A stretch of DNA of 64,000 nt from Psilocybe cubensis (lineage: Eukaryota): the NCBI GenBank assembly GCA_017499595.2, contig CM039009.1, forward strand, positions 1,922,001 to 1,986,000, in the 5' to 3' direction. The position numbers and the translations under genes were made by a program. The notes under the pieces are model-generated. The model was not told the origin of the DNA, did no database searches, and saw only the letters and a list, made by a program, of their open reading frames with translations. The stretch's first letter is position 1, and each line of letters starts with the position of its first letter. Below, one piece after another: positions 10,320 to 48,960 of this stretch.

Positions 10320-13014
10320 TCAATTGAGGGTACACCTGTCGTCAGTACTATGGTACATTTTATGTGCAATATTTGGGGCATACAGAAATCAGCGTGGCTG
10401 CTCGCGTGCGTGCGTTTATGCGTGTGCGTGCGTGGCACGGATTTACGCGCAACAACTGTGCTCTGCACGCATATGTATGTGTTCTGCACGCAATGTCACA
10501 GCTTTGTCACACATAGGGATATACCATTTCTCAGTGGTACTCTTTTCCTTCGTGCGTAAAGATGATGGTGGATGCTTTTGTACTGTATCGGTTCAAATGT
10601 AACTGATATGTATTTAATGTGCTGCCACTGCATTTGCCTGATTCTTGCCTTGGTAGCATTGGATTATTTAATAGTCATCCATTCAGAAATCTAGGATACA
10701 GAAAGTTCAATCCTATGCTCTTGTGACTCCAGTATTAACATTATTGCTAGCGTCCTATACGCACAATCAGATGGCTCGGCATGTTGTATTTCTCGGCGAG
10801 TTCCTCAAACCAATCTCCGACAGACAAAGCAACCGTCGGCATTGTAAGTTGTAACCGGCAAAGGTTTATATTCGGTGATGTCCGATCATGTCACCACGCC
10901 TGTGAACTTGGTTGGAACTTGTGAGAAACAAAATAATTTTATCCATTGGACATACACTGTATATCGTTTGACGACACAGAGCGTGACAACACAGCACGCT
11001 ATCGCACTCAAATGTACGCATCCGACACGCAAGGAGCACGCGATGGCCCCGCAGGTAAATTCTTCTTGCACGCCAGTACAAACTTATGCGTCTCTGAGTT
11101 GAATCACATTCCACAAAATATATTCAATCAAAAGCTCACTGCAGGTCCGAGTCCCACTGATGTTTGCTACATGACAATTGTAGCTTTCACTCACGTTATG
11201 TATCAAAGGTGTAGTTTGGTTGGACAAAAATTTATATCTACATCTGGTGCTGTAGGACCATTCAATGTTGCAGATTTTGAACATCACTGATTGAGATTGT
11301 GGTTTTATGTGAGACTTTCCCATAATTAAGCCTTGGATGGATTGGGAGTGCGGTCCTCTATAATTGCCTTGATGCTGTTTCCAATTGTGATATGGATGTT
11401 CAAATGAGATAATATATTCCAAAAATAAATGAGCAAGGATCAAATGTATGATGACTGCTTATGGTGTTGTTTCATCAGGCCCTTAATATATATATATAAA
11501 GCTCGTTAGGAGGGAGTTCACCACTCCGCAAGAACTCGTATTGATATCCAGAAGACCATTGTTAACAATTCAACCTGTTAGTAAGTGAAAGAAGCGAACT
11601 TTAATGGACGAGTACCTCAATACACTCTAAACAATTTGTTCTGGAGTCCCAATCCAATGCTTAGTATAACTAGACAGGCAATATATAACACTCCTGGCAG
11701 TACGTAGTATAGCGTGCTAGATGTGAAATTTATGCTGAAATATGCTCGCAAGTAACACGCTACTTCAATAACGCTGCACACATTTCAATTACATGCACAC
11801 GCAGGGTTTGACAATTCGCACGCAAAATGATAAGAAAGTCACGCAAATTTACCGAATGGCATTTATGCGTGCCACGCAAAAATAGGTCGCACGCGGGCAA
11901 GCCACGCTCTTTTCCTGGTGCCCCAATATTTGCGTCATTTAGAAGTATTTGTAGGAGTTTACGCTGATCCTCTGGGAGATCGGCTACGTCATCTTCGTTC
12001 AAGGCGTCGTCAAAGTACTCCGGTGGCTGTTTTCGAAGATGAATGTCTTTGACCACTTGTCTCCATTTTCGCCAAACTCTTGAATCTTTTGGGAGCAGTG
12101 TTGCAAGAAGGGCCTCTGGATTAAAATCGGAGTAAACCGGATTTTTCTCTGTTTCATCCAACGATCGTCGCAGGGAAAGGCATGTGAAGACTACCGCATT
12201 CGTCCGGTTGGGTAAAATGTATTTTTTTATGTCCATCTTCACGGATTGACGAAGCAGTTCTGTTTGCATTGCCTCTTTGTCGATAGAAGCGATTGTACGA
12301 TTGTAGATCCAAGAGATGGAAAACGAGCAAAGAAACATAAGTTGCCCAGCGAGATGACCTTGCGGAATGAGTAAAAGTTGTGCAATGAATTGTAGCAAGT
12401 AAAGCAGGGAGCATATCCCGATTATATGATAATTTGGCGCGCCTCTTAGTTTTAGGTGGAATCGGCCTTTGGTAATTGCATTGACACGACCTTCTGTGCC
12501 GCGCAGAACAGTAAAATCCTCGCCAATTAGGACGCCGTCACCGGGAGGAGATCCAGGAGAAGGACTGAATACGGTCTGCAGAGTCAGGTTGCCTGTTCCG
12601 ACTACCCAAGTTGACACCCCACCAATTATTGTACCAAAAAGGATGGCAGAGAAGCAGAACTTGTCGTCAAACAGGATCAGGGAGAATATAGCACATGCGA
12701 CGCTGCTGATCATGGTGAAGTATGATAGTAGGAGATGCAATGTTGAACTTCGGCTCGATAGGTGGTCTAATTGTTCGAAATCCTTGATATCGATGATGGT
12801 TACTGCTGTACTTCTGGTCTTTGGTGGTTCTTCACGCAGGTCGCTGAAGTCTGGGAGTTGCTTCACATACTGTGCGAGCAAATGGCCCATATACCTGTAT
12901 CGTCAACATTGATTTGAGAACATCATCTCCACCAAAGAAACCAGCGATACTGAATATGTCTAGGTTGAAGCTTGAATTTTGTAAGGGAGGATTAATGAGG
13001 GGGAGAGGGGCCAT
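10320..13014 (-). pseudogene. Agaricomycete multi-TM protein of unknown function (LDxxxIAGFFGG type), frameshifted and interrupted by a TE
   Basis: N-terminal ORF (LDIFSIAGFFGGDD) is out of frame with the TM-rich ORF at ~12890. Removing the 10375-11924 insert restores the C-terminus LLNDANI|AHKMYHSTDDRCTLN*. Confidence 0.7.
10375..11924. mobile_element. Non-autonomous TIR DNA element, 1550 bp, GGGG..CCCC termini, 7-bp TSD AATATTT
   Basis: Imperfect TIRs: left GGGGCATACAGAAATCAGCGTGGCTGCTCGCGTGCG; reverse complement of right GGGGCACCAGGAAAAGAGCGTGGCTTGCCCGCGTGCG. AATATTT at 10368-10374 and 11925-11931. No intact ORF inside. Confidence 0.85.
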
Positions 13015-13549
13015 GGTGGTGACCAGCTAGCTCGCGCATGTCATTAATTTAAAGGTAGAGATTACAGCGGCGGTGCAGCCTGCAGGCAGCAAACATCTAT
13101 TTCTGGACACAAATGCAAGTCCACCTGTATTGAAATCCACGAATTGCAGTGCCAAAGCTATTCATATCCCGCCCCACTTGCGCTCAACCATTTGTTGCGT
13201 GCATGTTTTTATGATGTCGGGACAGCCATGACTCTGACGAGAGGCAATGACTGACACGTATATTGAACGAGGCTTTTAAGAACGCATTAGAATCCCTTCA
13301 GCCTGGTAAATGACAGTCGATAGTCTGTCATTGGGAGGACCAACGTTCATAATCCGTGAAAAGCCGATGAAGGTAGAATCGACAGTATGAGGCGCATATA
13401 TTCTCAAGTCCCCACCCCAGTCTAAAACGAACTTGAATCAAATTTCTACTACGGAATGGATAGCATATAGTAACTCACCGCCAAAAATATCCAAATAACT
13501 ACTAGCACACCTTCTGACACTAAATCCGAAATGTTGGATCTTATTAATC

Positions 13550-16330
13550 AGTACTAAAATATATGCGTCGAAAACGCGTTGTATGATGATGATGAATAGA
13601 CATGCCTTAAGCGATTACGCCCGCCTTGGTGGTCCCACCGCCGTCCATATATTTATATTGAGCCAAAAGGTGCCTCATTCAAACTTGGAACAAGAAGCAG
13701 GGAATATTGGTATATCAGAGCTCAAAAGCGATCTCGGGTTCTAATACCAGCGAGGCCGTACACTGACGAATAGACAAATCTGAAGACATGAGGAGGATAT
13801 GAGTGAAACGAGTAGCATGGTTTTGAAGTGGAGTAGACATACATGAGATTTCGAGCGCATATACACATCTTAAAATGATGGCTGAAATCGAAGCTATGGT
13901 GGTGGCACAGAGGGAAGGAGGTCCAAATTCACAGAACCGCGTCGCGTCGGGTATTTATAGGCGTAGTGGCAAGATCAAGCAAGAACAAATATGGGTCCAT
14001 AGCCTATACCAAAACAGCAAACAAATATTAACTTGGAATGCCATCTCGCAACCGACTTACCAGAACGTATGTGATACTGTTCTGTAGATCCCCGAATAAT
14101 TGTCTTATTCAAAACTAAAGATCACACGGTTGTTCCGAATCAAATATGCATGGCATTAGTAGCCCAAAGCGAGTCCATCCGGACATGACAACAACGCGAT
14201 CTACTCTACAGGAACAAAATATCTTTGAAACCGAACAAATGTAATGAAAAGGTCCAATCACAGGGAAGGATAGAAATATTGTGATAGTGTTAATCGAGAC
14301 CAATATCCACTGTAATTGGGGTGTTTGGATCACGGAACTGTGGATTTGTGGAAGTTGAATGTTGAAGGATCAAGCTAAAAGCAAACGAAAACAAAGAAAA
14401 ATCTGAGCAAGTAAGTATTCGCGCTCTAATGGAATTCCAGAGTAAACTTACATAAAATAAAGAGGTCATACGCATCAGATCTCTTTGTCAATGTGACTCG
14501 GTGTTTGAAAGGGGTTGAGGGCTCCCTCGTATTATTATGGAACGGAAGGTGGTAGAGTGCTTCAATATTTGTGAAAAATTCGGACGGTGACTGGTTCGTT
14601 GCAATAGGAGGTTGGTAGTGGGCTTTAATATCGTGGTGGAAGAAGCGAGCAGAAGCCTTCACGAGTCCTGAATACCTAAAATTAGAGAGATACAAAGAAT
14701 GGGTTTGGAACTTACCAAAAAAGAGATCTTTCGACGCTAAGACCCGACGCATAACCGTAGTAGCTACTTCAATACTAAAACTAAATGAAAAGAATGAAAA
14801 CGGAAACGGAAACGAGAACACACTATAGAAATACAATGAGAGATCACCCTTTCGGAGCATATGATTTTTGGCGAGCGGACTCACATATGAGAGGGAATCA
14901 GGTACCCCAAGATCCGACTTGGCTCCAAATGGATGACGAATGGCAAATGGTTGAATAATTGGTGCTGATGCGCTGCCAGTGTGCATGTATTGCGGGGAAC
15001 ATGGCCAAAGTTGACGTGCGAGCCTTGCGAAGCAAAATTAGGCGGTAATGGGAAAGGGCGAGTTAAATTACCAGTCATGATCTTTCCAAAGCATGTCAGG
15101 GCAAAGAATATCTCGAGTGTATCGATTGCTAGAAGTATTGTATGTCAAAAGTAGAAAGACCGGTGGGTATACGAGACTCACTGAAGGTGCCCTTTCCAGA
15201 GGAGTGCTCATCCATATCCCATCCAAACATCGATACTATGGCATAAACACATAAGCAAAGATAATAAACCGAATTCGAGGAACGAAACGTGTTAAAGTAT
15301 TGCAATCAATGGTTTGCGGTGTCGTGTCGGGTGTCGTCCATGGCTAAGAAGGAAATAAATCAACCATATCAAACAACGAAAAGAAACAAACTAACCTCAC
15401 GCCAACTACCACTCGCCTAAGCCCGCCCAACACACAGGGTCCAAAGCAAGCTTTTATCAATCTCCACCCCTGCGATTCACGGTAGAAGCGACGATGTCCT
15501 GCAAGTCTACCGCTACTGCTTAGGGGGGTGGGCGAACCAACCAGCACTCCGTACCTCACCCCCTGGTTTCCACGACCCCCGATTTACAGGGGTGGCGGCG
15601 GGGGGGTGCCACACATCGAGCGGGTAGGGTCAAATTTCAGCTGCCCCGCATGTCCTAAGACAATCGCGCACTCCAGCCTGACACCAGCAGACTGAAGATA
15701 CGCGACCTGAATGGAGTGGTATACTTCTGTGCTGGGCTTCTTGACCGTTGTGTGTGGGCGAGCCTGCGTTGTGTGGGGTTGGTTAGTGGCTTTTAGGACG
15801 GTGAGACTGACGGTATTGGTCCAAGGCGGGATGGTATAATTGCTGTGAGGCGTTGTTAACAATGTTCTAACCTAGGCGAGATGGACTTACGCATGTGAGG
15901 AGTTGCCAAACCAAGGGCGGTGAAGATAGCTCAAGGCGGGGTGATGAAAGTGCTATCAAATGATTTTCTTAGCATGTTTGACAAAGGCGGGTTTACTTCA
16001 ACTTACTTTAGTTGAATACGAGCTATCACAAGTGGATATAACATCAAAGGAATCAGTTGAGCTCTTCGAAAATGTAAAGAGATGATGGCGGAAGAGAGTC
16101 AAGAGACGATGGAGGTTTCCATCCTGACCGTCAGCATTCTTATACCCATCCAGGTATGTTCTTGTTTGTTTTCAGCCTCCCTCGATCTCCTTTGTGTCAT
16201 CCGCCACACGCCCAAAAAGAGAAGTTTCATTTCCAAAAGCGGTTGTTTGTATGCCGTTAGTGCACGCGTGTAATTCGTGCACAATAGGCGGGGTAAATGC
16301 CGAGTTTTACACAGGCATATGAAATCATTT
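13550..16330 (-). repeat. Family R copy A: putative spliced, structured non-coding gene plus a downstream second promoter block
   Basis: Direct repeat of 19510-22200. Minus-strand TATA at ~16139-16144, then a series of 40-60 nt GT-AG introns; no long ORF. Confidence 0.8.
15396..15763 (-). ncRNA. 368-nt conserved structured exon of family R (copy A)
   Basis: Bounded by CAG| and |GTTAGT. Same length and near-identical at 21334-21701 and 47392-47759. Terminal stem GCTCGCCCACACACA/TGTGTGTTGGGCGGGC plus internal hairpins. Confidence 0.55.
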
Positions 16331-16399
16331 GACCACCCTGGGCAGCCCACAACTACTCGGATGTTCGACCAAACTCAATTGAACTTTTCGTGATTCAAT

Positions 16400-17823
16400 A
16401 TTCAAGGCTGGAGGTCACACAAAGATTCCAAATCAAACGTGTGTGGCATTAATAGCCCAAAACGTATCCTAATGGACGTGACAACAATGCAAAGTACTAC
16501 GAGGCATGACTATAATTCAAGGCAACTAAAATAATGAAAATCCTTTGCGAGGCAGAATGTAAAGGGTCGAATCGATGAGGAAATTAAAATCATAGTAAAA
16601 ATATATAAGTAATGGGGTATGACTTTCATTCCGGCCGATTTCTATTGTAAGTTGGTTGATTCGTTACGGAATATTGAAGGTGGAAACTGGGTTTATCTAA
16701 ATAAAAAAAAAGAAATAAGACTTGGCCAATTTAGTACAGACAATGGAAGAAACCAATAGGTTAGACGTACATAGAATACTGAGGTCAAATGCATCAGATC
16801 TCTTAACACTCGGTGTTTGAGAAGGCTCCAGGTGGCTCCACTGGTGGCTCGTCGATTTTGTGGTCAATAGAGCTTGATGTTGGCTGGTAGTACCGATTGA
16901 AAAAATCAAAGCGAATTAACTGTGGAGTTCTTGTGATGGTGTATGACGGAGGCAGGGATTGAAAAGTTGGTTCGGGTAGTTAAACAGAGTCCTGAATACC
17001 TGGCATATTAGATTGAGACATTAAATTAAGTCAGACCTAGAACTTGCCTGGAAAGAGATCTTTCGACGCAACGACCTGATGCGTAACCGTTACAACTACT
17101 TGAAAAATAAAAATAAAAAGAAGTAAAAAAAGAAAACAAAACACCTGATGGATATATAATGAGGTGATCGTCCTTTTAAAGGAAATTATAATCGGTGGGC
17201 GGACTCACAGGCAAAAGGGAACCAGATGCTCCAAGATCTGACGGGACTGCATATGGCTGCTCGATGGTAATTTGGCTTGTGACAAGGATTAAATCGTTGT
17301 CGTTGTGATGACAGGTGAAGGTGTGTATGTCTGATGGATAGCCTAGGAAAATGAGAAACGGAAGCCTTGCAAAAGAGAAATTAGACGGGTATGCCATTAT
17401 GCAAATGAACACACCAGTCGCGATTTTTCCAAAGAACGTTAGAGCAAAGATTGATCTCAAATATGTCGAGGATTTCTAAGACCACGCAATGTTACCAGTT
17501 GAAAGAGTGATGGAAATGCGAGACTCACTGAAGCGCTCTTTCTAAAAGGTGATAACCCATATCCTAACCAAACATTGATGCTATGGCACAAAATGGTAAG
17601 CAATTGCTACGCGTTGATCTCGAGGAACGAAAGATATTAAACGTATGCAAGCATTCGTGACATCGTGCTGGTTTTCAATGTCGAAGCGTCTTGTCCGATT
17701 GCCTAAGGACATGAAAAAATAAGTCAACCATATCAAACCATAGAAGGGACAGAGTGACATCACCCCAACCATCACTCGCCTAAGCCCGCCCAACAAACAG
17801 GGTCCAAAGCAAGCTTTAATCAA
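16400..17823 (-). repeat. Family R copy B (diverged, 5'-truncated inside the structured exon)
   Basis: Shares blocks GAGGTCAAATGCATCAGATCTC, GAGTCCTGAATACCT, AAAGAGATCTTTCGACGC, GAGACTCACTGAAG and CTCGCCTAAGCCCGCCCAAC with copies A, C and D; homology stops at ~17823. Confidence 0.8.
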
Positions 17824-18654
17824 GCACTGTACCACTGGTGACTTCGCCATCCCTAATTATTCTGAAGACCCGCTATTAATCCATTTTCGACAGTGTCCGG
17901 TTCCTGCAACACCCGAGAGAGTGCGCCTGTTTACGTTTTCTCTTTTCTGAATTATTCATTGACTTACATTTACACTTTGCAGCCGTGTTGAAGCGGGATG
18001 GAACCAATGTGGTGGTCGGCAGCAACTGTGCGGCTACCTCTGGAAGCTGGGTGTCGCCTTACGACAATGTGCCCACTAACCTGGCCAGCGACCTCGATAT
18101 TGTGCGATCCGTCCACCTGTCCCCTCTTATATCCTCATGTTAACTGACCATTGCTACGTTATTCTGATAGGATCACGTCGTTCCTTTGAAGGAAGCTTGG
18201 GTGTCGGGTGCCCGCACTTGGACCAACGCGCAGCGCGAGGCCTTTGCAAACGACCTCGTCCGCCCCCAGCTTATTGCTGTTACCGACTCGTATGTCTTGC
18301 TCTATACTAATTTATACTTTGGCTGACGATCTTCTTATTGCAGACTAAACCAGGCTAAGGGTGAGTAACGATGCGCCTCGGTACCTCTCTTTTCATTACC
18401 GATCACTGACGAGTTTCTTTTCTCTTATCGTTTGTTATCCTCGCCCGAACAGGTGATAAGGGTTAGTGCTAATCTCCATCGGATTTCGATATACCCATTG
18501 ACTTGATTTACCAGATCCCGCCGAGTGGATGGTCCCCCTCGCCAGCTACAGATGCACCTACGTCCGGGCCTGGATTCACGTTAAATACCACTACAAGCTC
18601 AGCGTCGACCAAGCTGAAAAGACCGCCTTAACGAATTACATAAACGCTTGCTAA
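17821..18654 (+). pseudogene. DUF1524 (HNH-like) secreted-nuclease family gene lacking its 5' end
   Basis: Spliced reading SGSCNTRET|VLKRDGTNV..WVSPYD..DLDI|DHVVPLKEAWVSGA..FANDLVRPQLIAVTDS|LNQAKG|DKD|PAEW..CTYVRAWIHVKYHYKLSVDQAEK..C*. No start codon or signal peptide; fused to R copy B. Confidence 0.8.
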
Positions 18655-18964
18655 ACGTCCACTAAACCTGTTTCTGCATTAAATGTATTTTAATATTCAT
18701 AGACTTAAGCAACCACATTGTTACGATCCATAAAGTTATATATATCAGTTACGGCCATTTCTCAGCGCAATTTGAAGCGTTGGAAATTTTCTTCTGAGAT
18801 TGTTAAAGCTGCTTTGAATCGAGAAAAAGCCTCTAATTCTTTTCCAATTCCCTCAAAGGAGATAGATTGTTTAAATTACGACAACGTGGTTTCTGTTGTA
18901 ATGGAAACGCATACGTAGAGTCTTACTAAAAAGTGAGAAGCCAACCAAAGATCCGTACCTCGAG

Positions 18965-19247
18965 AGGCGAAAAGTACCTGAGGTCGTTAACAGATGTTGG
19001 ACGCAATTTTACAGCGGGGTGTTATCACTTCCCAACATCAAGAACGCGCCAGGAGCCCTTTCGCCTAGCGGAAAGTAAGATCTGCATGATTGCGTAAGGG
19101 AGAATGAAGAGACCAATGCAACCGATGAACCGATATCCACTCTCGAGAGGCAAAAAGTACCTGAGGTCGTTAACAGATGTTACATATTATAGCATGGAAA
19201 GGTGCTATCACGTTTCAACATCAAGAACGCGTCAGGATCCTTTTGCC
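18965..19247 (-). ncRNA. Tandem pair of complete hairpin units (candidate milRNA precursors)
   Basis: Units 18965-19066 and 19149-19247 share an identical arm AAGTACCTGAGGTCGTTAACAGATGTT. Basal stems covary (GGCGAAA/TTTCGCC vs GGCAAAA/TTTTGCC); loops differ. Confidence 0.55.
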
Positions 19248-19509
19248 ACCCAGAGATAAGATAACAGGCGTTCTGGGAAGCATGAAGGGGCGAGACCAAT
19301 GCTGGCGAGCCGAGATGCCGGAATTCAAAGTGTGGCAAGTCTTTTGATCTCAGCAGAGATGAAAGTGAAATCGACGGAGTATGGGGCGCATATAGCCAGG
19401 TCCCTAGTCAGAAGTGGATAGCATATACTCACCACCAGATACATTCCACTGACTACTCGGTCACCGCCAATATTGTGAAGCGCCATCTGAGAATGCTGGA
19501 GAAAAATGA

Positions 19510-22200
19510 ATAAGTTGAATATATGCGTCGAAACAGCATTGGAATATTGAAAAGACACCTCTTAAGTGAGAAAGACTATCTTGATAGTCACTTTAACTGT
19601 CCAAATTTTGAGCTAGCAAGGAGACAGGGGGGATACCGAATGTGAAGGCACGAAGAGGAGGTGAGTGAAACGCCTTGTAAAGCGGAAAGAGGAGTAGACA
19701 AACAAGAGTTTTGAGGCGCATATAGCCACTTGAGACGTTGGCGGAAGTAGAGGTGATGGTGGTGGTAGAGGGGAAAGGAGGTTTGAATTCACAAAAACGC
19801 ATCGCGTCGGGTATTTATAGGCACGGTGGCAAGGTCAAGCAAGAACAAATATGGGTCCATAGAGGCCAAACAGCAAATAAATAATGACATGGAATGACAC
19901 CGAAGGACATGGAATGACGATTCGTAACGACTCGTTAAGCCCTAACCAGCATAAGAGCGATAGTGTGCTTTCAAGTCCCCACTTATCCTCTCTTATCGAA
20001 ATTGAAGGTCACACGACTATTCCGAATCAAATATGTATGACATTAATTGCCCAAAGCGAGTCCATCCGGACATGACAACAACGCGATCTACTCTACAAAG
20101 CCAAAAAGCTGTATAAAACCGATTAAAAGTAACTAAAAGGGCCCATCACAGGGCAGAATAGAAGGTCAAATAAACGAGAAGGTATTGAAATATGAGTGTT
20201 GTGTTGATGATTGTAATCGATATTAATATCTCGGGTTGGGGTTAATCTCGAAACTGTGATTGTGGATGTCGAAAGCAGGTTTCTAGCTAAATTAAAGGAA
20301 GAAAAAAACCTGGGCAAGTTAGTATCCGCGCTCTAATGGAATTACGGAGTAAACTCACATAAAATAAGAAGGTCATACGCATCAGATCTCTTTGTGACTC
20401 GGTGTTTGAACAGGCGTAAGGGCTCCCTCAGATCGTGGAATGAAAGGCAATAGTGCGCTTCAATTTAGGTGAATAATTCTGACTTTGCCCGGTTCTTTGC
20501 AATTGGAGTTTGGTAACAGGCTTGAATATCGTGGTGGATAAAGCGAGCGAAAGCCTTTAGAGTGCTTTGCATGTGAACTGGTAGACAAATAGTGAGGTTT
20601 CACGAGTCCTGAACACCTAAAATTAGAGAGGGACGAAGAATAGGCTTGGAACTTACCAAAAAAGTGATCTTTCGACGCAAAGACCTGACGCATAACCGTA
20701 GTCGCTACTTCAATACTAAAACTAAATGAAAAGAATGAAAACAAAAACGGAAACGAGAACAAGCTATAGAAATACAATGAGAGATCACCCTTTCGGAGCA
20801 TATGATATTTGGCGAGCGGACTCACATATGAAAAGAAACCAGATGCCCCAAGATCCGACTTGGCTCCAAATGGCTGACGAATGGCAATATTTGAATAATT
20901 GTTCCTGATGCGCTGCCAGTGTGCATGTATTGCAGATAACAGCCAAATTTGACGTGCAAGCCTTGCGAAACAAAATTAGGCGGTAATGGGAGAGGGCGAG
21001 TTAAATTACCAGTCATGATCTTTCCAAAGCATGTCAGGGCAAAGAATATCTCGAGTATATCGATTGCTAGAAATATTGCATGTCAAAAGTAGAAAGACCG
21101 GTGGGTATACGAGACTCACTGAAGGCGCCCTTTCCAGAGGAGTGCTCATCCGTATCCCAACGAAACATCGATACTATGGCATAGACTGGTAAGCAAGGTT
21201 ATTGCGCCGAATTTGAGGAACGAAACGTGTTAAAGTATTGCAGTCAATGGTTTGTGGTATCGTGTTGGTTGTCGTCCATGGCTAAGAAGGAAATAAATCA
21301 ACCATATCAAACAACGAAAAGAAACAAACTAACCTCACGCCAACCACCGCTCGCCTAAGCCCGCCCAACACACAGGGTCCAAAGCAAGCTTTTATCAATC
21401 TCCACCCCTGCGATTCACGGTAGAAGCGACGATGTCCTGCAAGTCTACCGCTACTGCTTAGGGGGGTGGGCGAACCAACCAGCACTCCGTACCTCACCCC
21501 CTGGTTTCCACGACCCCTGATTTACAGGGGTGGCGGCGGGGGGGTGCCACACATCGAGCGGGTAGGGTCAAATTTCAACTGCCCCGCATGTCCTAAGACA
21601 ATCGCGCACACCAGCCTGACACCAGCAGACTGGCAATACGCGACCTGAATGGAGTGGTATACTTCTGTGCTGGGCTTCTTGACCGTTGTGTGTGGGCGAG
21701 CCTGCGTTGTGTGGGGTTGGTTAGTGGCTTTTAGGACGGTGAGACTGACGGTATTGGTCCAAGGCGGGATGGTATAATTGCTGTGAGGCGTTGTTAACAA
21801 TGTTCTAACCTAGGCGAGATGGACTTACGCATGTGAGGAGTTGCCAAACCAAGGGCGGTGAAGATAGCTCAAGGCGGGGTGATGAAAGTGCTATCAAATG
21901 ATTTTCTTAGCATGTTTGACAAAGGCGGGTTTACTTCAACTTACTTTAGTTGAATACGAGCTATCACAAGTGGATATAACATCAAAGGAATCAGTTGAGC
22001 TCTTCGAAAATGTAAAGAGATGATGGCGGAAGAGAGTCAAGAGACGATGGAGGTCTCTCGTTCGACCGTCCCATTATTATAGTCTTTTAGGGTATGTTCC
22101 TGTTTGTTTTCAGCCTCCTTCGATCCCGATCTCAGTCATGTCATCCGCCTGTGGACAAAACGAGGAATCTGGTTTCTAAATGCGATTCTTTGTGTGTCTG
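19510..22200 (-). repeat. Family R copy C (close paralog of copy A; core exon 21334-21701)
   Basis: Near-identical to 15340-16110 at offset 5938; more diverged on either side. Confidence 0.85.
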
Positions 22201-22998
22201 TCGTTAGTATGTCTGACTCACGATGTATGCATTCGAGGCAAATGACGAAGCTGAAGATATCTAAATAAACTTCCAATTCGAAAAACCAATACCTGGCATA
22301 CATGCCCGGCTTTTGCTCCTCCTCCTCCCAGCAGGCTCTTCTTCTTCAGTTGCACCGACTTGCTTATTTTTTTTGGTTGCCGCCAAGTAGTCAATCTTTT
22401 TTGTTGATTCATAGATGATGCAGTATTTGAACGTTGCGGCTTTGGTTTGACGAATATTTTGCGTTTGACCAAGATCATGTCTACCTAAGAAGTATGATAC
22501 CATTCGCCTAAAATTGTGGAATGGCACTGATGCCAACTCTATCCTTTCGCTCGCCGCTTGAATCTTCATCAACTTCGCCCAGTGAAACACATACAAACAG
22601 TGCAGCATTGTCACCCGGTACTGCTCTTTGCAATCGAATACATTTGTTCATTTTTAGTCCATGGGCGTCTATGTCGTCCTTCTTTCAAACCTCCTCGGGA
22701 CCATCTTCTATTCGCATTCTACCTTCACATATCTAAAGCGGGACAACACGAGCCATACGACGCCTCGTTTCGACGATGGACGGGCGCCTGTACCCAGCAT
22801 TCCAGCTTCTCCGCAACACGTTGGACGACGGATTCGCCAGCACAAGGTCTATTGTGACTAAAACCGCTTCTATTCCGCCTACTCTTTGTTCAGAGCGCGG
22901 ATAGACCGTGGCATGCCCCCGACAATGCTTCATGTCCGAATCGGTGGATGACTCACGTATAAAAGGGCGCGGGTTTGATGATGCTAGTCAAGGTCCCG

Positions 22999-25900
22999 AT
23001 GGGCAAACCAGTATCTCCACACGGTTTTGTGTCGTATGCATCTGATGGTACGCCGACGTATCTACCTTTGAGATCAGTCTCTGCAAAGGTATACATTGTA
23101 GATGGTGAGTATCACTCATTTTTCTATCTGTGGTCTCTCACTGACGCTGCGTAGTCTCTGCCCGGGTCGTCCTCACCCAAATTTACCATAATTCAGATTC
23201 CAACAACAACCAATGCGCTTCGGCACAATATATTTTTCCTGTCCCCGCCAATGGTGCTGTATGTGCGTTTACCATGCAGACCGCAGACGGTCGCATGGTG
23301 CGAGGGGTCGTGAAGGAGAGAGAGCAAGCAGAAAAGGAGTACAAGTTTGCGATAGCGCATAACACTTTTGCAGGGCTGGTTTATGAAGCCACACCCGACA
23401 GTGAGCTACCTACGTTCTTATAAGGCCGTTCGTTAACATTTGTCTAGTTTTCGTTATCACGATGGGCGCCATACCTGGCGGCCAGGATGTCCAAGTCACC
23501 ATAATGGTATGTTTTTCCTTGTCCTTTCTCGTTTCTCTCTTAACTTTTAAATTTCTTAGTACATAACCCCTCTCGCCGACTCTGACCTACCGGGGTACGA
23601 TCAAATTGAATTTACCCTCCCTACATACATCGGGATACGATATGGCCCTCCTCCTGCCTCTCTCCCCCGCATTCATTCGTCGTCTCAACGCCTCGCATCC
23701 CATTCATCGCATTCGCACTCGGAAAAGACAATGCTGGACATTGCGGTTCACATACAAATGCCTAGCGAAATACTCGAAATCGTATCGTGCACACACGATA
23801 TCAAAGTCGACGCCCACACCACTCGCACAGATTCGCGATTTGGACTGTCAACTTCATACACAGCGACAGTGACACTCGATGCATCCGGTTCCCCACCTCG
23901 TCTCAACCGTGACTTTGTCCTTGCCATTCGTGCAGCACAGCTCGGGAGTCCGCGCTGCGTTGCAGAAGTTGTCAAAGCCCCATATTCCGTGCACAAGGCC
24001 AAGAGTGCAAGCAGTGTTGCTTTCGCGTTGACATTCGTCCCGCGGCTCAAGCTCCGTGCCTCTGTATCCTCGTCCACATTATCGTCCAAACTTCCCCACG
24101 TGCAACGGCAGCACGAATACATCTTCCTGATTGACCGGTCAGGAAGCATGGCCCACTCACGGATAGAGCTCGCCAAAGAAGCCTTGACGCTCTTCGTAAA
24201 GAGTTTGCCTTCCACTGTCGACGGAGCAGGTGTGCGGACCACGTTCAACGTGTTTGGGTTTGGGAGTACGTGCGTCAGATTGTGGAATACGAGTAGGGTG
24301 TATGATGAGGCCAACGTGCGGGCTGCGGTGTGTTTTTTTCTACTTCCATTCTCATCTTCATGTTGCTAATTGATACCTCATGTATAGCTTGACCATGTGA
24401 AGTCCATTGACGCCAACCTCGGCGGCACCGAGATCTTACACGCCCTCCGCTGCGTCCTACAAGCATGCAACAGCGCCATCCCTACATCCATATTCGTGCT
24501 CACAGACGGGGAGGTGTACGACGTTGAAGCGATTTTCGCTCTCGTCTCTTCTGCCGTCGCCCAATCAACTCCTACCTCTCAAAACATCTCTGCATTATCT
24601 CCCTCACCCGCTCCCCTTCGGTTTTTCACGCTTGGTATCGGCGACTCTGCATCAACAGCACTCTGCGAGGGCATCGCACGTGCGGGCGGGGGAGTCTGCC
24701 TAATGAGCAGGAAAGAAGCTGATGTCTCCGCAAAGTGCGGGCGTTTATTGACCGCTGCTGAGAGTGCCGCTCTGGGTGTGTTTAGTGGTGGAAATGGCGG
24801 AGTTGGGCTTGATTTAGGCACGGGATCTCCATCGAATAGTGGCGGTCCAAAGGGACAATCTGGCGGTACAGCCAACTGTGCAGGCGAAATCGAGATCGAC
24901 TGGGGTCATGGTCGTGGGAAACTTCTTCAAGCGCCCACGCGCATTTCCGCGCTCCACCCCGAGAATAGATTTACTGCCTTTGCCATCTTAGAGGACGTGG
25001 ATGTGGATGCAGACGGTATTCCAGACGAAGTGGTGCTATACCAGAGGGGCAAGGACGGAAAGCAGAGTGAAGTTGGGAGGGTGAACGTTTGTTTGGTCGA
25101 GGATCCAATGCACACTTTGAGCAAGGGATATGAATATGGAACAAGAGGCGCAAATAAAAATACGCCCCCGCTTATCCATACGATGGCTGCACATCGTATC
25201 ATTCAGCAGCTTGAAGATGGGAACATTGACACATTACATGCCGTGCGTGGACAGACTACGAATGGCATACATTCATCTAGGGGCACTGATGAGAGGGAAA
25301 GAAGAGCGGAGGTTGTGCGATTGAGTGAAAGGTTCCAGGTTGCAAGTAGGTGGGCATCATTTGTTGCTGTTGAGGACACTCTACATGGGGATGGCGATGG
25401 TAATCTGGGTGTGGATAACAAAAATAATACTGGCAAAGTAGTTGCCAACGAAGATGACAACGCTGACGACGACGACGACGACGACGATTTTTACCTCGAC
25501 GAGGAAGAAGAGGCTCATGCTCACGCAAGTAAGAGCCGAACTGTCAAGCTTACTTCCACCGCCAACGTCAGTTCTACTGTTCAGCCCAATTCCAACGGCA
25601 ACATACACGCCAAACAACACACTAACCCTATTGAACACTCTGGTGCCAACCCCAACGCAACAGCAGACACACCAGACCCGTCCTCAATTGGAGGGTTATA
25701 CCCCAAGACAGATCGGCCTACCCGAGGGGATTTGAACGTGAAGATTTCTGGAGCCCGGTCTGGGGGTAACCCTCCTCGGATGACCGACACATCTACGTAT
25801 GCGCCGTATGCGCAGACACGTCCTCACAATACCAACAACATGTTCAACGCCGTTGCTAATCATTCCACAATTCCTGCTTCTACCTCATGTCCGGTACCAG

Positions 25901-27540
25901 TTTCTTCAACATCGGTTTCTCCGGGCACCCCCAAACCTTTGGCTGGGAGTGGAAGAGGCAGGGCATCTACGGCTTGGAACTATCCACCTTGGCCAGACGT
26001 AGACAACACCGAGCAAGTGAACGGTGGTCAGATATATGTGAATTCCAACGCAAATGTGTCTGCTCAGTCACGCGGGTTTCCATCTACTACGGCGATCAAT
26101 TATGGTGCGGGGTTGAATGGCGAGGGTGCACCCTCTACAAATTCGGGTGCTATGGGCAGGCCTTTGGGACTGAGGAGGTCGCATACGAGAATCACATCGG
26201 CGTCGGCGCTGCCGCGTCATGACGTTCTTCCTGCCAGTTCGACGATGAACACCACTGCAAAGGTGTCTAGTTCTACAGACACTAGAGGGACAATGCAAAT
26301 TCCGTCTCATTTCGTCAATGCATTCAGACCTCCTGGACCGCCAACTGGCTCGGCACCCCCGGCAACCTCAAATCCCTGCGCGGGTCAGAACTCTGTTAGT
26401 AATACGGCGGGGCAGATGCATGCGAAAGGCAGCATTTACTTCTTGGATACCATCTCAACTATCGACGAGGACAATCGCGGGTTCGCTAAGAATGATGCAG
26501 AAGTTTCATCTACGCAGACGTCAGTGGGACATGTTGATGGCCCAAGGGATGTGCCGCAGAACACCGTCCTGCCGCCCGTGGACATGCATTACAAAGTTGT
26601 TCAATCAGCAGCTCCGCCTCCAGTTGGGCGGGACGCATGTTTGGATAATGCCCATGCGGCGGCGGCTGGATGTCATGTCCATATGAGGATGCCTGGTGCT
26701 TATCCCTATAGTCATGGGTGCTGTCCATGCCTCTGCTTCTGCTGTTGCTGTTGCAGCCACCGCCACTGCCATCATCATCACCATCACCATAACTATAGTC
26801 ATGTTGAACCCCAATCCACCTGTCCTCCTCCTCCTCCTCCTCCTCCCATACATAATCCAACACCCGCACCTGCTCCTATTCCGCAACCCAGTCATCTTGA
26901 TGCTCCGAGGCACTCTTCGGTGCCAGTACGGGGCGGAAGACTGGGAGCTCGTCCCCAATCGGTGATGTACGAGCTTGAGACGGCTGTATGTATCCCCAGT
27001 TTCCTTGACTCCGTGTCGGGTACAGCCGTGCTTGGGACTGTGGACAAGGAAGACGAAGAAAGGGACAATGAGGATGCGCCGCTCCTGTTTGTTCCAACTT
27101 TTGCATCCAAGACTGGGGTATACAGAGCTTCAAACACAAAGCAGGGCGATAATGAGGATGAGTCGGGGACCGCCCGCGCCCCAATCATCGCCGCAGCAAA
27201 CATGCAGCGGTTTGACGGATCGTTTGTACTCGATGCGCAGTTACATGTACTGATGGGCAACTCTAGGAGGAACGTGTCACTGGAGAGGCTAAGAGAGGCC
27301 ATTCCTGCCCGGCTCAAGGAACGCGTCGGTGCGAATGTGCATGAGGCAGAGACTGTCTGGGCAACGGTGCTTGTTGCTGCATATTTGAAGAAATCGCTCC
27401 CACAGGAAAAGGAGGTGTGGATTGGACTGTGGGATAAGGCGGCGGCGTATGTGGAGGGGAAAGTTGGGAGGACAGCTAGTCAGGGTCTTGAAGGTCTGTC
27501 GTTTGCGCGGTTGGTATTGGAGGCATCGAGGTTGGTGTAA
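22999..27540 (+). CDS. VIT + von Willebrand A domain protein (VWA5A-like) with a long low-complexity insert
   Basis: VIT-like LPLRSVSAKVYIVD|VSARVVLTQIY..YIFPVPANGAVCAFTM; VWA MIDAS motif IFLIDRSGSM, GGTEI, FVLTDGEV, FTLGIG; C-terminal QRFDGSF..VWATVLVAAYL; TATAAAA at ~22958. Confidence 0.9.
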
Positions 27541-27719
27541 GTTGGGAGAAGTGAACAAGATTTCTTGGACAATTTATGTTGTTCTGGGTGCTCAGTCTGG
27601 CCTGGGTTGCTGTGAGGATGACCTCACGATTCCGTCTCTCCTATGTCAACCTCGTCATTGACCCCGACGATTCTGTTTTCTCAAATACATTGTAAATAAC
27701 CATTTTTAGAAAAAGAAAT

Positions 27720-27871
27720 TCTTTTTTTGGACGCGTGGCGGGCGACATATATTAAGGGAAGCAGAAAACAAACAACAACATACTCCGGAGGGGTATAAAA
27801 ATCGGACGGTCGAGCAGATATGCCTCCATCGTCTCTTGACTCTCTTCCACAACCATCTCATCATATTTTGG
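27720..27871 (+). repeat. Family R copy D, 5' part (TATA and start region), split by the KDZ insertion
   Basis: GGGTATAAAAAT..GACGGTC..CCTCCATCGTCTCTTGACTCTCTTCC matches the reverse complement of ~16070-16150. Confidence 0.75.
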
Positions 27872-27900
27872 CAGCCTTACCTGCTACCTGAACCCATCAC

Positions 27901-28428
27901 ATACTGGAAACTGCCAGGTGGGCAGTATATATCTAGCCTGGCAGTTTCCAGTTGCCACATTTGATGCATTCGCCGCGTCTGAGCACGTGCTGGGCAGCTG
28001 CACCAAACAATGCGTCAATACGCATGCCGGCCGTTCGGAATAGCGTTGCTCGTCGTTGGGGCCGCCGTTCGGGCTGAAAAAAATACGGGTCGGTAGCCAG
28101 CAGCGCCTAGAATGCGGCGGCGTTGTTTGCGCAGGGTTCGGGGGTGGTGGCGGGATGGATTGGTCGGGGTGGGTTTGGATGACGCGGGGGAATTAAATGC
28201 GCGCCTTCCCGATTGGGATGTTCGCGGGTGCAGTAGCCGTGTGCCCACCGCCCTTGCTGGTCTGGACCGCACACAGCCTCCTGATGATCACTCATCAGTG
28301 ATGCAAGTATATTTTTAGACGCAATCTCGGCCCACCCCTGCCCACCCTGGTCTGGGCCTGGCACTGCCTCTGATGATCATTCATCAGTGATGCAGGCGTA
28401 TTTTTAGACGCGATGGATGGTTCCTGTC
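27901..28428 (+). repeat. Left inner TIR of the KDZ element
   Basis: Reverse complement of 46541-47052, near-identical apart from a ~17-bp indel and a few substitutions. Confidence 0.95.
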
Positions 28429-28806
28429 TATCCCAGCTTGGCAGCATCATCCGCCCCCCACTGGATCCATTTGGCTTGCGGCTCTCGCCTATCACACCAC
28501 ATGCCCAGGCTCCTCCAGGCTCTCGGTATCCGGCCTCAGAAAACCGGGTATGCATTTCAACTTTGCAGTGCAACACAGTAGGTTGGTTACAATGTTCTTC
28601 AGTAGTTGTCGTAGCTGTAATGTACACAGATACGTGGATATGTTTAGTAGAGATTTTTTAAAACAAGACATTAATTATTGTGTTGCTTTAAGTCATTAAT
28701 TCTATCTCTTATTGTAACAGAATGGTGCACTCCAGACTATGAAGATAAATGCATTTTAGGCATGGCAATACAAAAAAACCTACAAGCAAGCCTAATGTCC
28801 ATCGTA

Positions 28807-30939: not shown

Positions 30940-31368
30940 CTAAGTTCTTAGTGAGTACATATACAAATATTTAAATCATGTTATGTTTGTTTGAGAACAT
31001 ACAGTTTGTAGAATGAGGGAGACTTGGACGTCAAAATTTATGCTTCTAGGCAGGAAGTTTTGGTTGAAAACACAGCCTACTAACACGGTCATTTTGTTAG
31101 CGCAATTCGCAATGCCTTTGAATCAAACCAAACCACTGGAGTTGTGAGTCGGAAATCATATTAGGCATGAATGCCAAGTTTACATTTACAATTTGAATGA
31201 TACCCTAGAGCGCTAGTGTTCACTAGGTTATGTACAGTCAAACCAAGTCAGCACGTCGACAAACCAGCTTGGAGTTCGGATGTTTTTATATATTTTATCT
31301 TTCTAATTTTTGATCACTAACAGAAACTTTAAAAGCAGATTTTCGTGAAGCATTCCGACCGACAAAAA

Positions 31369-33064: not shown

Positions 33065-33262
33065 GGCAAAGGTGTATTTTGCAAAGGGTATGCTGTAGGG
33101 GACGTATCTCACAACTTAGTTTACACTGGTACTTTACTAAGCTTTTTTTATTTCAATTTCATATGAGATTGGCTGGCTCTTTGGGGTGTGATTGTTGCTC
33201 AATGCACGTGAAAAACATTCAGATATTGATAAAAATGTAAAATGAAATTTTACTGAACCAAA

Positions 33263-33838
33263 TCAGTGAACAGGCGAACCACCTCGGTAAGAGTTGCGTC
33301 CATGCAAACTGATCCATTCCTCCTCAGTAATGCCATGAGCCAGCGCGCTCAGGCGTATCCATTCTTCCTCCTCATCCGGGTCCTCCTCTTCTTCGTTTGG
33401 AGGGTTTTGTTTTTTCCTACGTAGATAGTTTGTATACTAATGACTTTGACAATAAAATAAAACATACCTGTAGTAAATTTTGGCCTTAACCTTCAACGTG
33501 AAACGGTTTCGTTCACGATATCTAGCCTGGGCCTCACGATGCTTCTGTCTGCTCAAAGCAAGCTCGTTGTCAGGCAGACTCTTGCGACTGATGGTCATGA
33601 ATGAGGTTAGGTTGTAACATAGTATGCGCACGTTGGACGTACCGTTGATAACGCTCTTGCGATTTCCGTCGCTCGCGTTTGCAGTTGCTAAGAAAGTTAA
33701 GTTTGCGTGTAGTTAAGTTTGCGTAGGTTGATTGCGTTGACAGAGACCTACGTACGCCTCATAGTAAGCACGTCTCCGTCTGAGATACATCTCACGGTTT
33801 ACAGTTTTGATTGCTTTTGAAGCGCGTTGGCGTGCCAT
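33263..33838 (-). CDS. Small basic coiled-coil protein with an acidic tail, multi-exon (KDZ cargo)
   Basis: MARQRASKAIKTVNREMYLRRRRAYYEA|..|LSRQKHREAQARYRERNRFTLKVKAKIYYR|..EEEEDPDEEEEW; GT-AG introns. Confidence 0.6.
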
Positions 33839-35844: not shown

Positions 35845-35913
35845 CCTACGGTTTACGCGAGTTGTGAAGAGTTAGCTATGGGTAAGCGGTTGGGGCACAA
35901 AGGGTTTAAACCT

Positions 35914-35998
35914 CAGTGTATGTCCGTGCCCGAACATTCCTGAGGAAAACACCGCCTTTCGCAGTCCAACAGTGTATGTCCGTGCCCGAACATTCCTG
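35914..35998. repeat. 29-bp perfect direct repeat between the divergent TET and transposase genes
   Basis: CAGTGTATGTCCGTGCCCGAACATTCCTG at 35914-35942 and 35970-35998. Confidence 0.85.
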
Positions 35999-47052: not shown

Positions 47053-47081
47053 ATGATACATCAGGACAGCAGGTAGAGGTG

Positions 47082-48960
47082 ATTTTGGAAGAGTTTCCCT
47101 AAATCCTTTGACGATTTATCTACTTGTGATATCTCTTACTCAAGTAACGTAAGTTAGACTTAATTCGCCCTTGTCAAACATTCTAAGAACATCATTGGAA
47201 AGCACTTTCATCACCCCGCCTTGAGCTATCATCACCGCTCTTGGTTTGGCAACTCCTCACATGCGTAAGTCCATCTTGCCTAGGTTAGAACATTGTTAAC
47301 AACGCCTCACAGCAATTATACCATCCCGCCTTGAACCAATACCGTCAGTATCATCGTCCTAAAAGCCACTAACCAACCCCACACAACGCAGGCTCGCCCA
47401 CACACAATGGTCAAGAAGCCCAGCACAGAAGTATACCACTCCATTCAGGTCGCGTATTGCCAGTCTGCTGGTGTCAGGCTGGTGTGCGCGATTGTCTTAG
47501 GACATGCGGGGCAGTTGACATTTGACCCTACCCGCTCGATGTGTGGCACCCCCCCGCCGCCACCCCTGTAAATCGGGGGTCGTGGAAACCAGGGGGTGAG
47601 GTACGGAGTGCTGGTTGGTTCGCCCACCCCCCTAAGCAGTAGCGGTAGACTTGCAGGACATCGTCGCTTCTACCGTGAATCGCAGGGGTGGAGATTGATA
47701 AAAGCTTGCTTTGGACCCTGTGTGTTGGGCGGGCTTAGGCGAGTGATGGTTGGCGTGAGGTCAGTTTGCTTCTTTTCGTTGTTTGATACGGTTTATTTAT
47801 TTATTCCTAGCCTCGGGCGATAACCAGCACGATGCTGCAAACCATTGATCGCAATACAATAACACGTTTTGTTCCTCGAGATCAACGCGTCCCAATTGCT
47901 TACCATTTTGTGCCATAGCATCAATGTTTGGTTGGACATGGGTCATCATCTTACAGAAAGAGCGCTTCAGTGAGTTTCGTACTTCCATCAGTCTTTGCAC
48001 TGGTAACATTATGTAGATTTAGAAACCCTCGACATATTCGAGATCAATCTTTGCTCTGTCTTTCTTTGGAAAGATCATGACTGGTGTGTTCAGTTACATC
48101 CTCCCACAACCGTCTAATTTCGTTCGTGTAAGGCTCGCATTTCTCATTTTCCCATCAAACATAAACACCGGCACTCGCAATTCCAACGACATGGACGAGG
48201 TCCTTGTCGCAAGTCACACCATCGCCGCGCAGCCACTTGTAGTCACGTCAGATCTTGGGGCATCTGGTTCCCTTTTACTTGTGAGTCCGTTCCCTGAGAT
48301 TATCATTTCTTCTAAAGGACAATCACCTCATTATGTATCCATCAGGTGTTTTTTCTTTTTTTATTTCGTTTTTATTTTATTTTTGAAGTAGTTGTAACGT
48401 TACGCACCAGGTCGTTGCGTCGAAAGATCTCTTTCTAGGGAAGTTCCAGGTCTACTTTGATTGAATGCCTCATTCTAATATGCCAGGTATTCAGGACTCG
48501 GTTTAACCACGCGAACCTCAGTGTAATCCCCAACTCCGGCATACACTGTCACACAAGAACTTTGCAGTTATAATCCGCCCTACAATTCTTCTAATCCGTA
48601 CAACCTGTCAACATCAGGCTCTTTCAAACACAAAAGGCAATAAACTACAACTGGAGCCGCCTCTAGCTTTATAAAACACCAAGTCTCAAAAGATCTAATG
48701 CGTCTGACCTTCTCATTTTATGTACGTTGATACGCAGTGCAGCTTGCTAACCACGGAAATCGCGCGCACCAAGTCCACTTTCCCACGCTTCACATGATCG
48801 CGGAACATCAATACACCACCGACATCGCCCACCGACACCGATATTCCTCGCTCCCGATTCAATTACTCATTTATTTCTCATCACCATTCCATTTTGTATG
48901 CGTCTTCGTAATATTTTAACAAATTTTCTTCATTTTAAAACCTGAATTTCATATACAGCA
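47082..48960 (+). repeat. Family R copy D, 3' part (core exon 47392-47759)
   Basis: Inverted relative to A, B and C; core near-identical to A/C, downstream exons closer to copy B. Confidence 0.85.

What the first reader, a model, noticed from the sequence alone, without database searches (positions are those of the whole stretch)
15396..15763. 368-nt highly conserved structured exon with pairing-preserving substitutions
Seen: exactly 368 nt and nearly identical in A, C and D, although D's downstream exons are much diverged from A/C. The ends pair (GCUCGCCCACACACA..GGUC with GACC..UGUGUGUUGGGCGGGC). The hairpin at 15663-15706 differs on both arms yet stays paired: copy A CUUCAG/CUGGAG, copies C and D UGCCAG/CUGGUG. 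Further stems CCACCCC/GGGGUGG, GCGGUAGA/UCUACCGU and CCAGCAC/GUGCUGG. I could not match it to SRP, RNase P/MRP, U3, telomerase RNA or known ribozymes. Inference: a novel functional RNA domain.
Basis: partly seen in the sequence, partly recalled or inferred. Interest (0 to 1): 0.8.

Follow-up and report, generated by a model that had tools for sequence, protein, structure and literature searches.

The report
Structured exon of mushroom non-coding RNAs
A strongly folding stretch of RNA sits in one exon of a small family of spliced, non-protein-coding transcripts in the mushroom Psilocybe cubensis; it may be a new functional RNA module, but its near-identity between copies could also come from copies overwriting each other.

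Summary
The sequence facts hold. Copies A (15396-15763, -), C (21334-21701, -) and D (47392-47759, +) align over 368 nt without gaps at 97.6-98.6% identity. The ends pair, all named stems are in the predicted fold, and the 15663-15706 hairpin differs on both arms yet stays paired.

Corrections:
- The expressed exon is 447 nt (15396-15842). RNA-type contigs read through the supposed acceptor at 15763/15764.
- Near-identity is not confined to the block. It runs through intron 1 into exon 1, to about 15960.
- The host transcripts are spliced but non-coding.
- The window is Psilocybe cubensis.

For a real sense-strand fold: z -3.6; only 1 of 18 windows along unit A folds this well. The hairpin reaches -26.8 kcal/mol on the sense strand against -12.4 on the other. 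None of 8 core substitutions breaks a pair (random placement 0.6%).

Against: three near-identical paralogs give no covariation power (161 of 500 shuffles equal it). The differences are clustered and mosaic, which indicates gene conversion. No homologue outside the species could be fetched. There is no Rfam match.

Verdict: a plausible new structured lncRNA module, function unproven. Interest is moderate.

The parts
15396..15763 (-). The reported 368-nt block in copy A. Columns 1-343 form the closed fold and columns 344-368 are a 25-nt tail.
   Evidence: MFE -161.9 kcal/mol, z -3.63; 128 consensus pairs.
15396..15842 (-). Exon 2 of unit A as supported by RNA-type contigs (447 nt).
   Evidence: joint 15842>15891 with GT..AG ends on the minus strand; a contig is laid continuously over 15679-15830; a loose end falls exactly at 15396; the same fold forms in exon context (-178.3 kcal/mol, z -3.19).
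15398..15788 (-). Full predicted structured domain. The terminal helix is extended by pairing of the 5' extension (15764-15788) with the 3' tail.
   Evidence: present in the MFE of A, C and D (-178.3, -181.8, -177.6 kcal/mol), with shifts of register in C and D.
15663..15706 (-). 19-pair hairpin with one two-sided and two one-sided pair-preserving changes.
   Evidence: sense -26.8 kcal/mol (z -5.9); opposite strand -12.4 kcal/mol (z -2.7).
15843..15890 (-). Intron 1 (48 nt, GT..AG), as conserved as the exon.
   Evidence: for the joint; 1 of 48 positions differs between A and D.
15344..15395 (-). Intron 2 (52 nt, GTTAGT..TAG).
   Evidence: for the ends; contig pieces end at 15343, and a loose end of a spliced paralog contig lies at 15396.
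13777..16253 (-). Transcription unit A: upstream region X, at least 6 exons, non-coding.
19639..22196 (-). Unit C, paralog of A, with block at 21334-21701.
   Evidence: 83% identity over 2.6 kb..
47075..48727 (+). Unit D, with block at 47392-47759. Its body is of the B type. Its own upstream region X lies at 27694-27876, split off by a transposon.
16402..17827 (-). Unit B, truncated. It keeps only block columns 300-367.
   Evidence: nhmmer E 3e-15.

Best explanation
The block is the core of a sense-strand RNA fold of about 390 nt. The fold fills almost all of a 447-nt internal exon (exon 2). The exon belongs to a multi-copy, spliced, non-coding transcript family of Psilocybe cubensis.

Shown here:
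- The units are transcribed from the minus strand and spliced at short GT-AG introns.
- They carry no conserved reading frame.
- The exon's two ends pair in a long helix. That helix closes a multi-branch junction with several hairpin arms.
- 15 of 122 pairs are G-U, so the fold exists only in the sense RNA.
- All substitutions seen among the copies keep it.

Inferred:
- The fold is a constant, cis-acting module in front of fast-evolving 3' exons. It is most likely a scaffold for protein binding or RNA stability.
- By tying both exon ends together a few nucleotides from the intron-2 donor, it may also influence splicing.
- Pairing is kept by selection. Gene conversion among paralogs adds to the sequence identity.
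For: Thermodynamics:
- Sense fold -161.9 kcal/mol, z -3.63, 0 of 100 shuffles as good. The opposite strand gives -138.4 kcal/mol, z -2.30.
- Of 18 overlapping 368-nt windows along unit A, only the one on the block is exceptional (z -3.43). The other 17 lie between -0.54 and +2.14.
- The hairpin at 15663-15706 gives -26.8 kcal/mol on the sense strand and -12.4 on the antisense strand.

Variation:
- All 8 core substitutions among A, C and D leave every one of the 122 MFE pairs intact.
- One pair changed on both sides (68-92, U-A to G-U). Three more changed on one side.
- Random placement of the same 8 changes breaks no pair in only 0.6% of 20000 trials.
- Two changes in a paralogous contig (15755, 15757) turn A-U and C-G into G-U and U-G. 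Variants at 15585 and about 15632 fall in loops (read against the structure).

Expression:
- GT-AG joints on the minus strand occur in run X8 and not in the DNA runs X1 and X6, among the 15 joints listed.

Non-coding:
- Every frame of the spliced model has stops.
- Frameshifting indels occur in A vs C and in B vs D, and substitutions show no 3-periodicity in the A-C comparison.

No known family.
Against: - Only three near-identical paralogs were available. The covariation measures are matched by 161 of 500 shuffles.
- Near-identity also covers intron 1 (1 of 48 differs) and the exon-2 5' extension (3 of 79 differ). Mature-RNA structure does not explain that.
- The clustered A-specific changes, and the sharing of A's hairpin version with another paralog (P0001), indicate gene conversion. 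Conversion can mimic constraint within one genome.
- The structure used in the placement test was predicted from copy A, and the substitutions are not independent.
- The gene model P0001 implies G5>A and C7>A in the terminal helix of another paralog. These would break two pairs unless compensated, and its 3' strand is not visible.
- Windows offset by 123 nt lose the signal. Much of the z-score therefore rests on the terminal inverted repeat.
- The variant list is truncated: 205 rows are not shown.
- No homologue outside the species was recovered.
Confidence: 0.45

Rival explanations
1. Concerted evolution without RNA function. The 5' part of these tandem and dispersed non-coding units is repeatedly homogenised by gene conversion, for example from a promoter-proximal recombination hotspot. 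The fold is then an incidental property of a GC-rich sequence with an old inverted repeat.
For: - The identity profile is a mosaic. A-C runs from 60-65% (upstream X) to 100% (about 16109-15750), then 96-98%, 86-96% and 63-79%.
- D matches A/C at 96-100% only between about 15396 and 15960, intron 1 included, with about 68-76% on both sides.
- Five A-specific changes lie within 58 nt, next to 410 nt without any A-C difference. The A-type hairpin recurs in P0001.
- Formal covariation is not significant.
Against: - Conversion does not explain why two hairpin versions that differ at 4 positions both pair fully.
- It does not explain why all 8 core changes spare all pairs (0.6% by random placement).
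- It does not explain why the pairing is specific to the sense strand.
- In more distant paralogs, DNA contigs diverge from the window at about 15797, close to the 5' edge of the predicted domain (loose ends).
Confidence: 0.35
2. The block descends from a small mobile element with inverted ends (MITE-like) that was exonised in the ancestor of the family. The terminal helix is then its inverted terminal repeat.
For: The first 28 and last 27 nt of the 343-nt core form a helix of 24 pairs. This helix carries much of the z-score.
Against: - I saw no direct repeat flanking the core, and pairing continues into the flanks.
- All 4 copies in the window lie at the same position of the same transcription unit. 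None lies elsewhere in the 64 kb.
- The inner hairpins depend on G-U pairs and favour one strand.
Confidence: 0.1
3. The exon, or its 19-pair hairpin, is a precursor that is processed into small RNAs (microRNA-like), or into a circular exon through its paired ends.
For: The hairpin is long and nearly perfect on the sense strand. The exon ends are brought together by the terminal helix.
Against: No small-RNA data were available. No back-splice joint between 15396 and 15842 appears among the 15 joints listed, with 20 more not shown. The stem is short for a Dicer substrate; this last point is general knowledge, not tested here.
Confidence: 0.07
4. It is a protein-coding exon.
For: One public gene model (P0001, 103 aa, 'hypothetical protein', Psilocybe cubensis) reads through part of a paralogous block.
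Against: - The frame has a stop inside the block, and the model avoids it with an internal intron.
- P0001 has no relative but itself.
- The 3' half has no real relative: the 4 hits are translated tandem repeats.
- Indels in A vs C and B vs D shift the frame, and substitutions show no 3-periodicity in A vs C.
Confidence: 0.03

Closest known systems
Structured modules of long non-coding RNAs (for example the stability elements and scaffold domains described in animal lncRNAs; recalled, not tested here)
   Same: A compact, strongly folding segment inside a spliced Pol II-type non-coding transcript. It is far better conserved than the rest of the RNA.
   Different: There is no sequence or model match to any curated family. 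It is multi-copy and known only from one species so far. Its function is unknown.
Conserved structural RNAs found in fungi by comparative genomics (PMC8216456, PMC5640933; seen only as search listing and abstract start)
   Same: Candidate fungal structured RNA found from sequence and structure signals.
   Different: Those were supported by covariation across many species. Here only near-identical paralogs of one species were available. None of the Rfam 15 families matched the block; I did not check whether those motifs are among the families in Rfam 15.
SRP RNA, RNase P/MRP RNA, U3 and telomerase RNA
   Same: Size of 300-450 nt, paired ends and a multi-branch architecture.
   Different: There is no covariance-model match even at E up to 10. 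The block lies inside a spliced multi-exon transcript in at least 3 copies. There is no telomere-template run on the sense strand of the units.
MITEs and other short elements with inverted terminal repeats
   Same: The two ends form a helix of 24 pairs.
   Different: No target-site duplication was found. All copies sit at one position of one gene family. The inner hairpins are strand-specific.
Gene families under concerted evolution (gene conversion between paralogs)
   Same: Mosaic identity, sharp drops at tract edges, and an intron as conserved as the exon.
   Different: Conversion alone does not predict pair-preserving differences between the variants.

Membership tests
Any Rfam 15 family (SRP, RNase P/MRP, U3, telomerase RNA, known ribozymes, riboswitches) | Covariance-model score at or above the family's gathering threshold. 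| tested here: not met
   0 matches in 64 kb; 4 matches at E 2-4.4 in 13500-22500, none inside 15396-15842 and all far below gathering.
Telomerase RNA | A template of about 1.5 telomere repeats on the RNA strand (TTAGGG-type repeat assumed from general knowledge). | tested here: not met
   no 8-mer of (CCCTAA)n on the sense strand of units A, C or D. The only sense-strand hit near a unit (18466) lies upstream of truncated B.
MITE / short TIR element | Terminal inverted repeats. | tested here: met
   Helix 1: columns 1-28 pair with 317-343, 24 pairs.
MITE / short TIR element | Target-site duplication, and copies in unrelated genomic contexts. | tested here: not met
   No flanking direct repeat. 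The 3 full copies and 1 partial copy all lie in the same unit position. The rest of the genome could not be searched.
Protein-coding exon | An open frame kept between copies, with codon-position bias of substitutions. | tested here: not met
   no real protein relatives.
Introner-like element / spliceosomal intron | GT..AG ends on the transcribed strand and removal from the RNA. | tested here: not met
   The block starts GCTC and ends TGAG, and it is retained in RNA-type contigs.
Evolutionarily conserved structured RNA | Statistically significant covariation in an alignment of diverged homologues. | tested here: inconclusive
   Three sequences. One pair changed on both sides, and 161 of 500 shuffles reach the observed values. 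No wider homologues could be fetched.
Evolutionarily conserved structured RNA | Folding energy beyond composition-matched controls, on the transcribed strand. | tested here: met
microRNA-like precursor | Discrete small RNAs mapping to the hairpin arms. | not testable with these tools
   No small-RNA run was available. Only contigs were laid.

The most novel reading that the evidence does not exclude
The roughly 390-nt fold is a previously undescribed class of fungal structured RNA. It would be a constant ribonucleoprotein scaffold, or a catalytic or self-processing domain, carried by a family of lncRNAs with variable 3' parts, and conserved by selection across Psilocybe and its relatives.
Probability: 0.2. 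Interest if true: 0.75.

Novelty: new member of a known kind. Interest (0 to 1): 0.45.

Why it matters
Few fungal long non-coding RNAs have a defined, conserved structure, and I know of none described in mushroom-forming fungi. A large module specific to the sense strand, shared by several spliced transcripts, would give a concrete object for probing, pull-down and knock-out. It would also flag a public gene model (JR316_0009295) as probably a spurious reading frame on a non-coding RNA. If instead the identity is only gene conversion, the locus is an ordinary example of concerted evolution in a transposon-rich region.

Tried and rejected
- Whole-genome search: no genome is held for this window.
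- Phage collection blastn: no match.
- Metagenome scans. A 29-nt pattern gave 0 hits. The 21-mer conserved in all four copies gave 1 hit, a bacterial contig with no further similarity, so a chance match. Both scans are now used.
- Viral contigs: 0 hits.
- Protein-level detours to reach other genomes. The 92-aa frame over the 5' half found only P0001. P0001 found only itself. The 62-aa frame over the 3' half found 4 hits, all translated tandem repeats.
- Earlier findings of this scan: nothing by place, sequence or words.
- RNA holders: no listed holder is on record as RNA. X8 and X15 are only guessed to be RNA.
They say nothing yet about conservation across species.
- No back-splice joint and no use of the AG at 15764 appears among the 15 listed joints; 20 more are not shown.
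- Telomerase template search: negative.
- By eye I also found no H/ACA, C/D-box or hammerhead core motifs kept in all copies. This was not a formal test.
- A covariance model was not built. There is no eukaryotic collection to search it against, and nhmmer already finds every copy in the window.
- Literature: 4 searches listed nothing on this RNA. I saw only listings and abstract starts.

Full report
**Where and what**

The window is fungal. A 1050-aa open frame at 24388-27537 is 100% identical over its whole length to a UniRef entry of Psilocybe cubensis (VWFA domain protein). No whole genome is held for it.

The reported block lies on the minus strand. Self-comparison of the window finds four related units:
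- A: 13777-16253 (-).
- C: 19639-22196 (-), 83% identical to A over 2.6 kb.
- D: 47082-48727 (+).
- B: about 16402-17827 (-), a truncated copy that keeps only columns 300-367 of the block.

**Checking the observation**

A, C and D align over 368 columns without a gap. They differ at 8 (A-C), 9 (A-D) and 5 (C-D) positions. Downstream, D is only about 68-70% identical to A/C and is closer to B (78-92%).

The sense strand folds to -161.9 kcal/mol, with z -3.63 and 0 of 100 dinucleotide shuffles as good. The ends form a helix of 24 pairs.

The hairpin at 15663-15706 is CUUCAG/CUGGAG in A and UGCCAG/CUGGUG in C and D. Pair 68-92 changes on both sides (U-A to G-U). Pairs 67-93 and 69-91 change on one side. 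Both versions fold equally well, at -26.8 and -26.6 kcal/mol with z about -5.9. The description of the sequence is therefore accurate.

I laid contigs of four public runs on 13000-22500. Run X8 shows joints with GT..AG ends on the minus strand. Its label as RNA is only a guess.
- The joints are 14403-14451, 14667-14714 and 15843-15890 in A, and 20308-20356 and 21067-21119 in C.
- The DNA runs X1 and X6 show no such joints among the 15 rows listed; 20 more rows are not shown.

The units are therefore transcribed from the minus strand and spliced.

The donor at 15396 is supported. A contig of X15 breaks exactly there and continues with sequence resembling the start of a B/D-type exon 3. Contig pieces of X8 end at 15343 and 15182.

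The acceptor proposed at 15763/15764 is not supported. An X15 contig is laid continuously over 15679-15830. X8 has depth on both sides. The intron removed upstream is 15843-15890. Exon 2 is therefore 15396-15842, 447 nt.

Near-identity is not limited to the block. A-D differences by feature are:

| Feature | A-D differences |
|---|---|
| Intron 1 | 1 of 48 |
| Exon-2 5' extension | 3 of 79 |
| Core | 7 of 343 |
| Tail | 2 of 25 |
| Intron 2 | 7 of 52 |
| Exon 3 | 48 of 162 |

**The host transcripts are non-coding**

A spliced model of unit A has stops in all three frames. A and C differ by indels of 1, 2, 4, 5, 35 and 43 nt inside exons, and their substitutions show no three-base periodicity. 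B and D likewise differ by many indels of 1, 2 and 4 nt.

The only protein in 5.8 billion that matches a frame over the block is P0001, a 103-aa 'hypothetical protein JR316_0009295' of P. cubensis. It avoids the in-frame stop with an internal intron and has no relative but itself. The frame over the 3' half has no real relative. P0001 is best read as a spurious frame on another paralog of this RNA family.

**Is the fold real?**

Several independent signals say yes.
- Along unit A, only 1 of 18 overlapping 368-nt windows folds better than its shuffles. That is the window on the block, at z -3.43. The others lie between -0.54 and +2.14.
- The fold favours the transcribed strand: -161.9 kcal/mol (z -3.63) against -138.4 (z -2.30). 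The hairpin gives -26.8 against -12.4 kcal/mol.
- 15 of the 122 pairs in the single-sequence MFE are G-U. This argues against a purely DNA-level palindrome.
- None of the 8 core substitutions among A, C and D breaks any of the 122 pairs. Five of them fall in paired columns. Random placement of the same changes achieves this in 0.6% of 20000 trials.
- A paralogous contig carries changes at 15755 and 15757. These convert A-U and C-G of the terminal helix into G-U and U-G. Variants at 15585 and about 15632 fall in loops (read on the structure).
- In the 447-nt exon the terminal helix extends. The 5' extension (15764-15788) pairs with the tail up to 2 nt before the intron-2 donor, in all three copies.

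**Why this is not yet proof**

- With three near-identical sequences, the formal covariation measures are reached by 161 of 500 shuffles.
- The placement test uses a structure predicted from copy A and treats linked changes as independent.
- Windows shifted by 123 nt lose the signal, so the terminal inverted repeat carries much of it.
- The variant table is truncated.
- P0001 implies two changes (G5>A, C7>A) that would weaken the terminal helix in another paralog unless they are compensated.

The identity pattern is also that of gene conversion.
- A and C are 100% identical from about 16109 to 15750, and only 60-65% identical just upstream.
- Five A-specific changes then cluster within 58 nt.
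- A's hairpin version recurs in P0001, while C shares D's version.

Conversion within a genome can mimic constraint. Only comparison between species can separate the two, and I could not obtain such sequences.

**What it is not**

- There is no Rfam family match at gathering thresholds in the whole window. There is none at E up to 10 around the units.
- There is no telomere-template run on the sense strand.
- It is not an intron-like element, because it is retained in the RNA.
- It is not a typical MITE. No target duplication was found, and all copies sit at the same place in the same unit.

**Family architecture**

D seemed to have a different upstream flank. It is in fact split from its own upstream region (27694-27876, 76-79% identical to the regions upstream of A and C) by an insertion of about 19.2 kb.
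- The insertion spans 27877-47074.
- It has inverted ends of about 530 nt at 96% identity.
- A 7-bp direct repeat, ATTTTGG, lies at both junctions.
- It carries frames matching the CxC2 and KDZ transposase families.

The units are thus an ordinary duplicated gene family, not mobile elements themselves. Depth in the DNA run X1 is about five times the single-copy level over the block. Together with the paralogous contigs, this points to at least two further copies elsewhere in the genome.

**Most likely mechanism**

I commit, at about 45%, to a constant structured module of a lncRNA family. The sense-strand fold ties the exon ends together and presents several hairpin arms. It most plausibly acts as a protein-binding or stabilising scaffold and may influence splicing at the adjacent donor. 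Selection keeps the pairing, and gene conversion adds to the identity. Transcription, splicing, non-coding status, the fold and its strand bias are shown. The function is inferred.

The main rival, at about 35%, is concerted evolution of a functionless but well-folding sequence.

**Novelty**

Four literature searches returned nothing on this RNA (listings and abstract starts only). If real, it is a new family of a known kind, a structured lncRNA domain.

Noticed in passing
window 27877-47074: An insertion of about 19.2 kb with inverted ends of about 530 nt (27896-28428 vs 47057-46541, 96%) and a 7-bp direct repeat ATTTTGG at both junctions. It carries frames matching CxC2 (E 7.5e-38) and KDZ transposase (E 7.9e-33). 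It separates unit D from its upstream region.
   Followed up: partly
window 39264-45643: An LTR retrotransposon nested in the KDZ element. It has 452-nt direct repeats at 99.8% identity and gag-like (43594-44745) and pol-like (39716-43612) frames on the minus strand. By eye, the pol frame ends in a chromodomain-like stretch.
   Followed up: no
window 49207-54731: Two long plus-strand frames (847 and 922 aa) that look like gag and pol of another retroelement just downstream of unit D.
   Followed up: no
window 17880-18650: Plus-strand frames antisense to the region upstream of truncated unit B. One frame (18171-18323) weakly matches the GmrSD_C nuclease domain (E 4.7e-4, below the curated cut-off).
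   Followed up: partly
window 15821-15990 and copies: The motif CYCGCCTWRG recurs in exon 1, intron 1 and the exon-2 5' extension. Its complement lies in the exon-2 tail. There are 9 matches in the window against 0.5 expected, 8 of them in the units. The intron-1 copy could pair with the tail next to the intron-2 donor over 10 bp.
   Followed up: partly
P0001 (public gene model JR316_0009295, Psilocybe cubensis): This 103-aa 'hypothetical protein' appears to be a reading frame laid over a paralog of this non-coding RNA. It is probably an annotation artefact.
   Followed up: partly
window 61258-61530: A near-perfect palindrome: 136-nt arms, 93% complementary, with 1 nt between them.
   Followed up: no
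window 63311-63498 and 31424-31543: Tandem repeats inside open frames: two 93-nt units at 96% identity, and two 60-nt units at 82% identity.
   Followed up: no
window 59685-60548: A minus-strand frame with Spt5-like NGN and KOW domains (KOW2_Spt5 E 1.2e-13).
   Followed up: no
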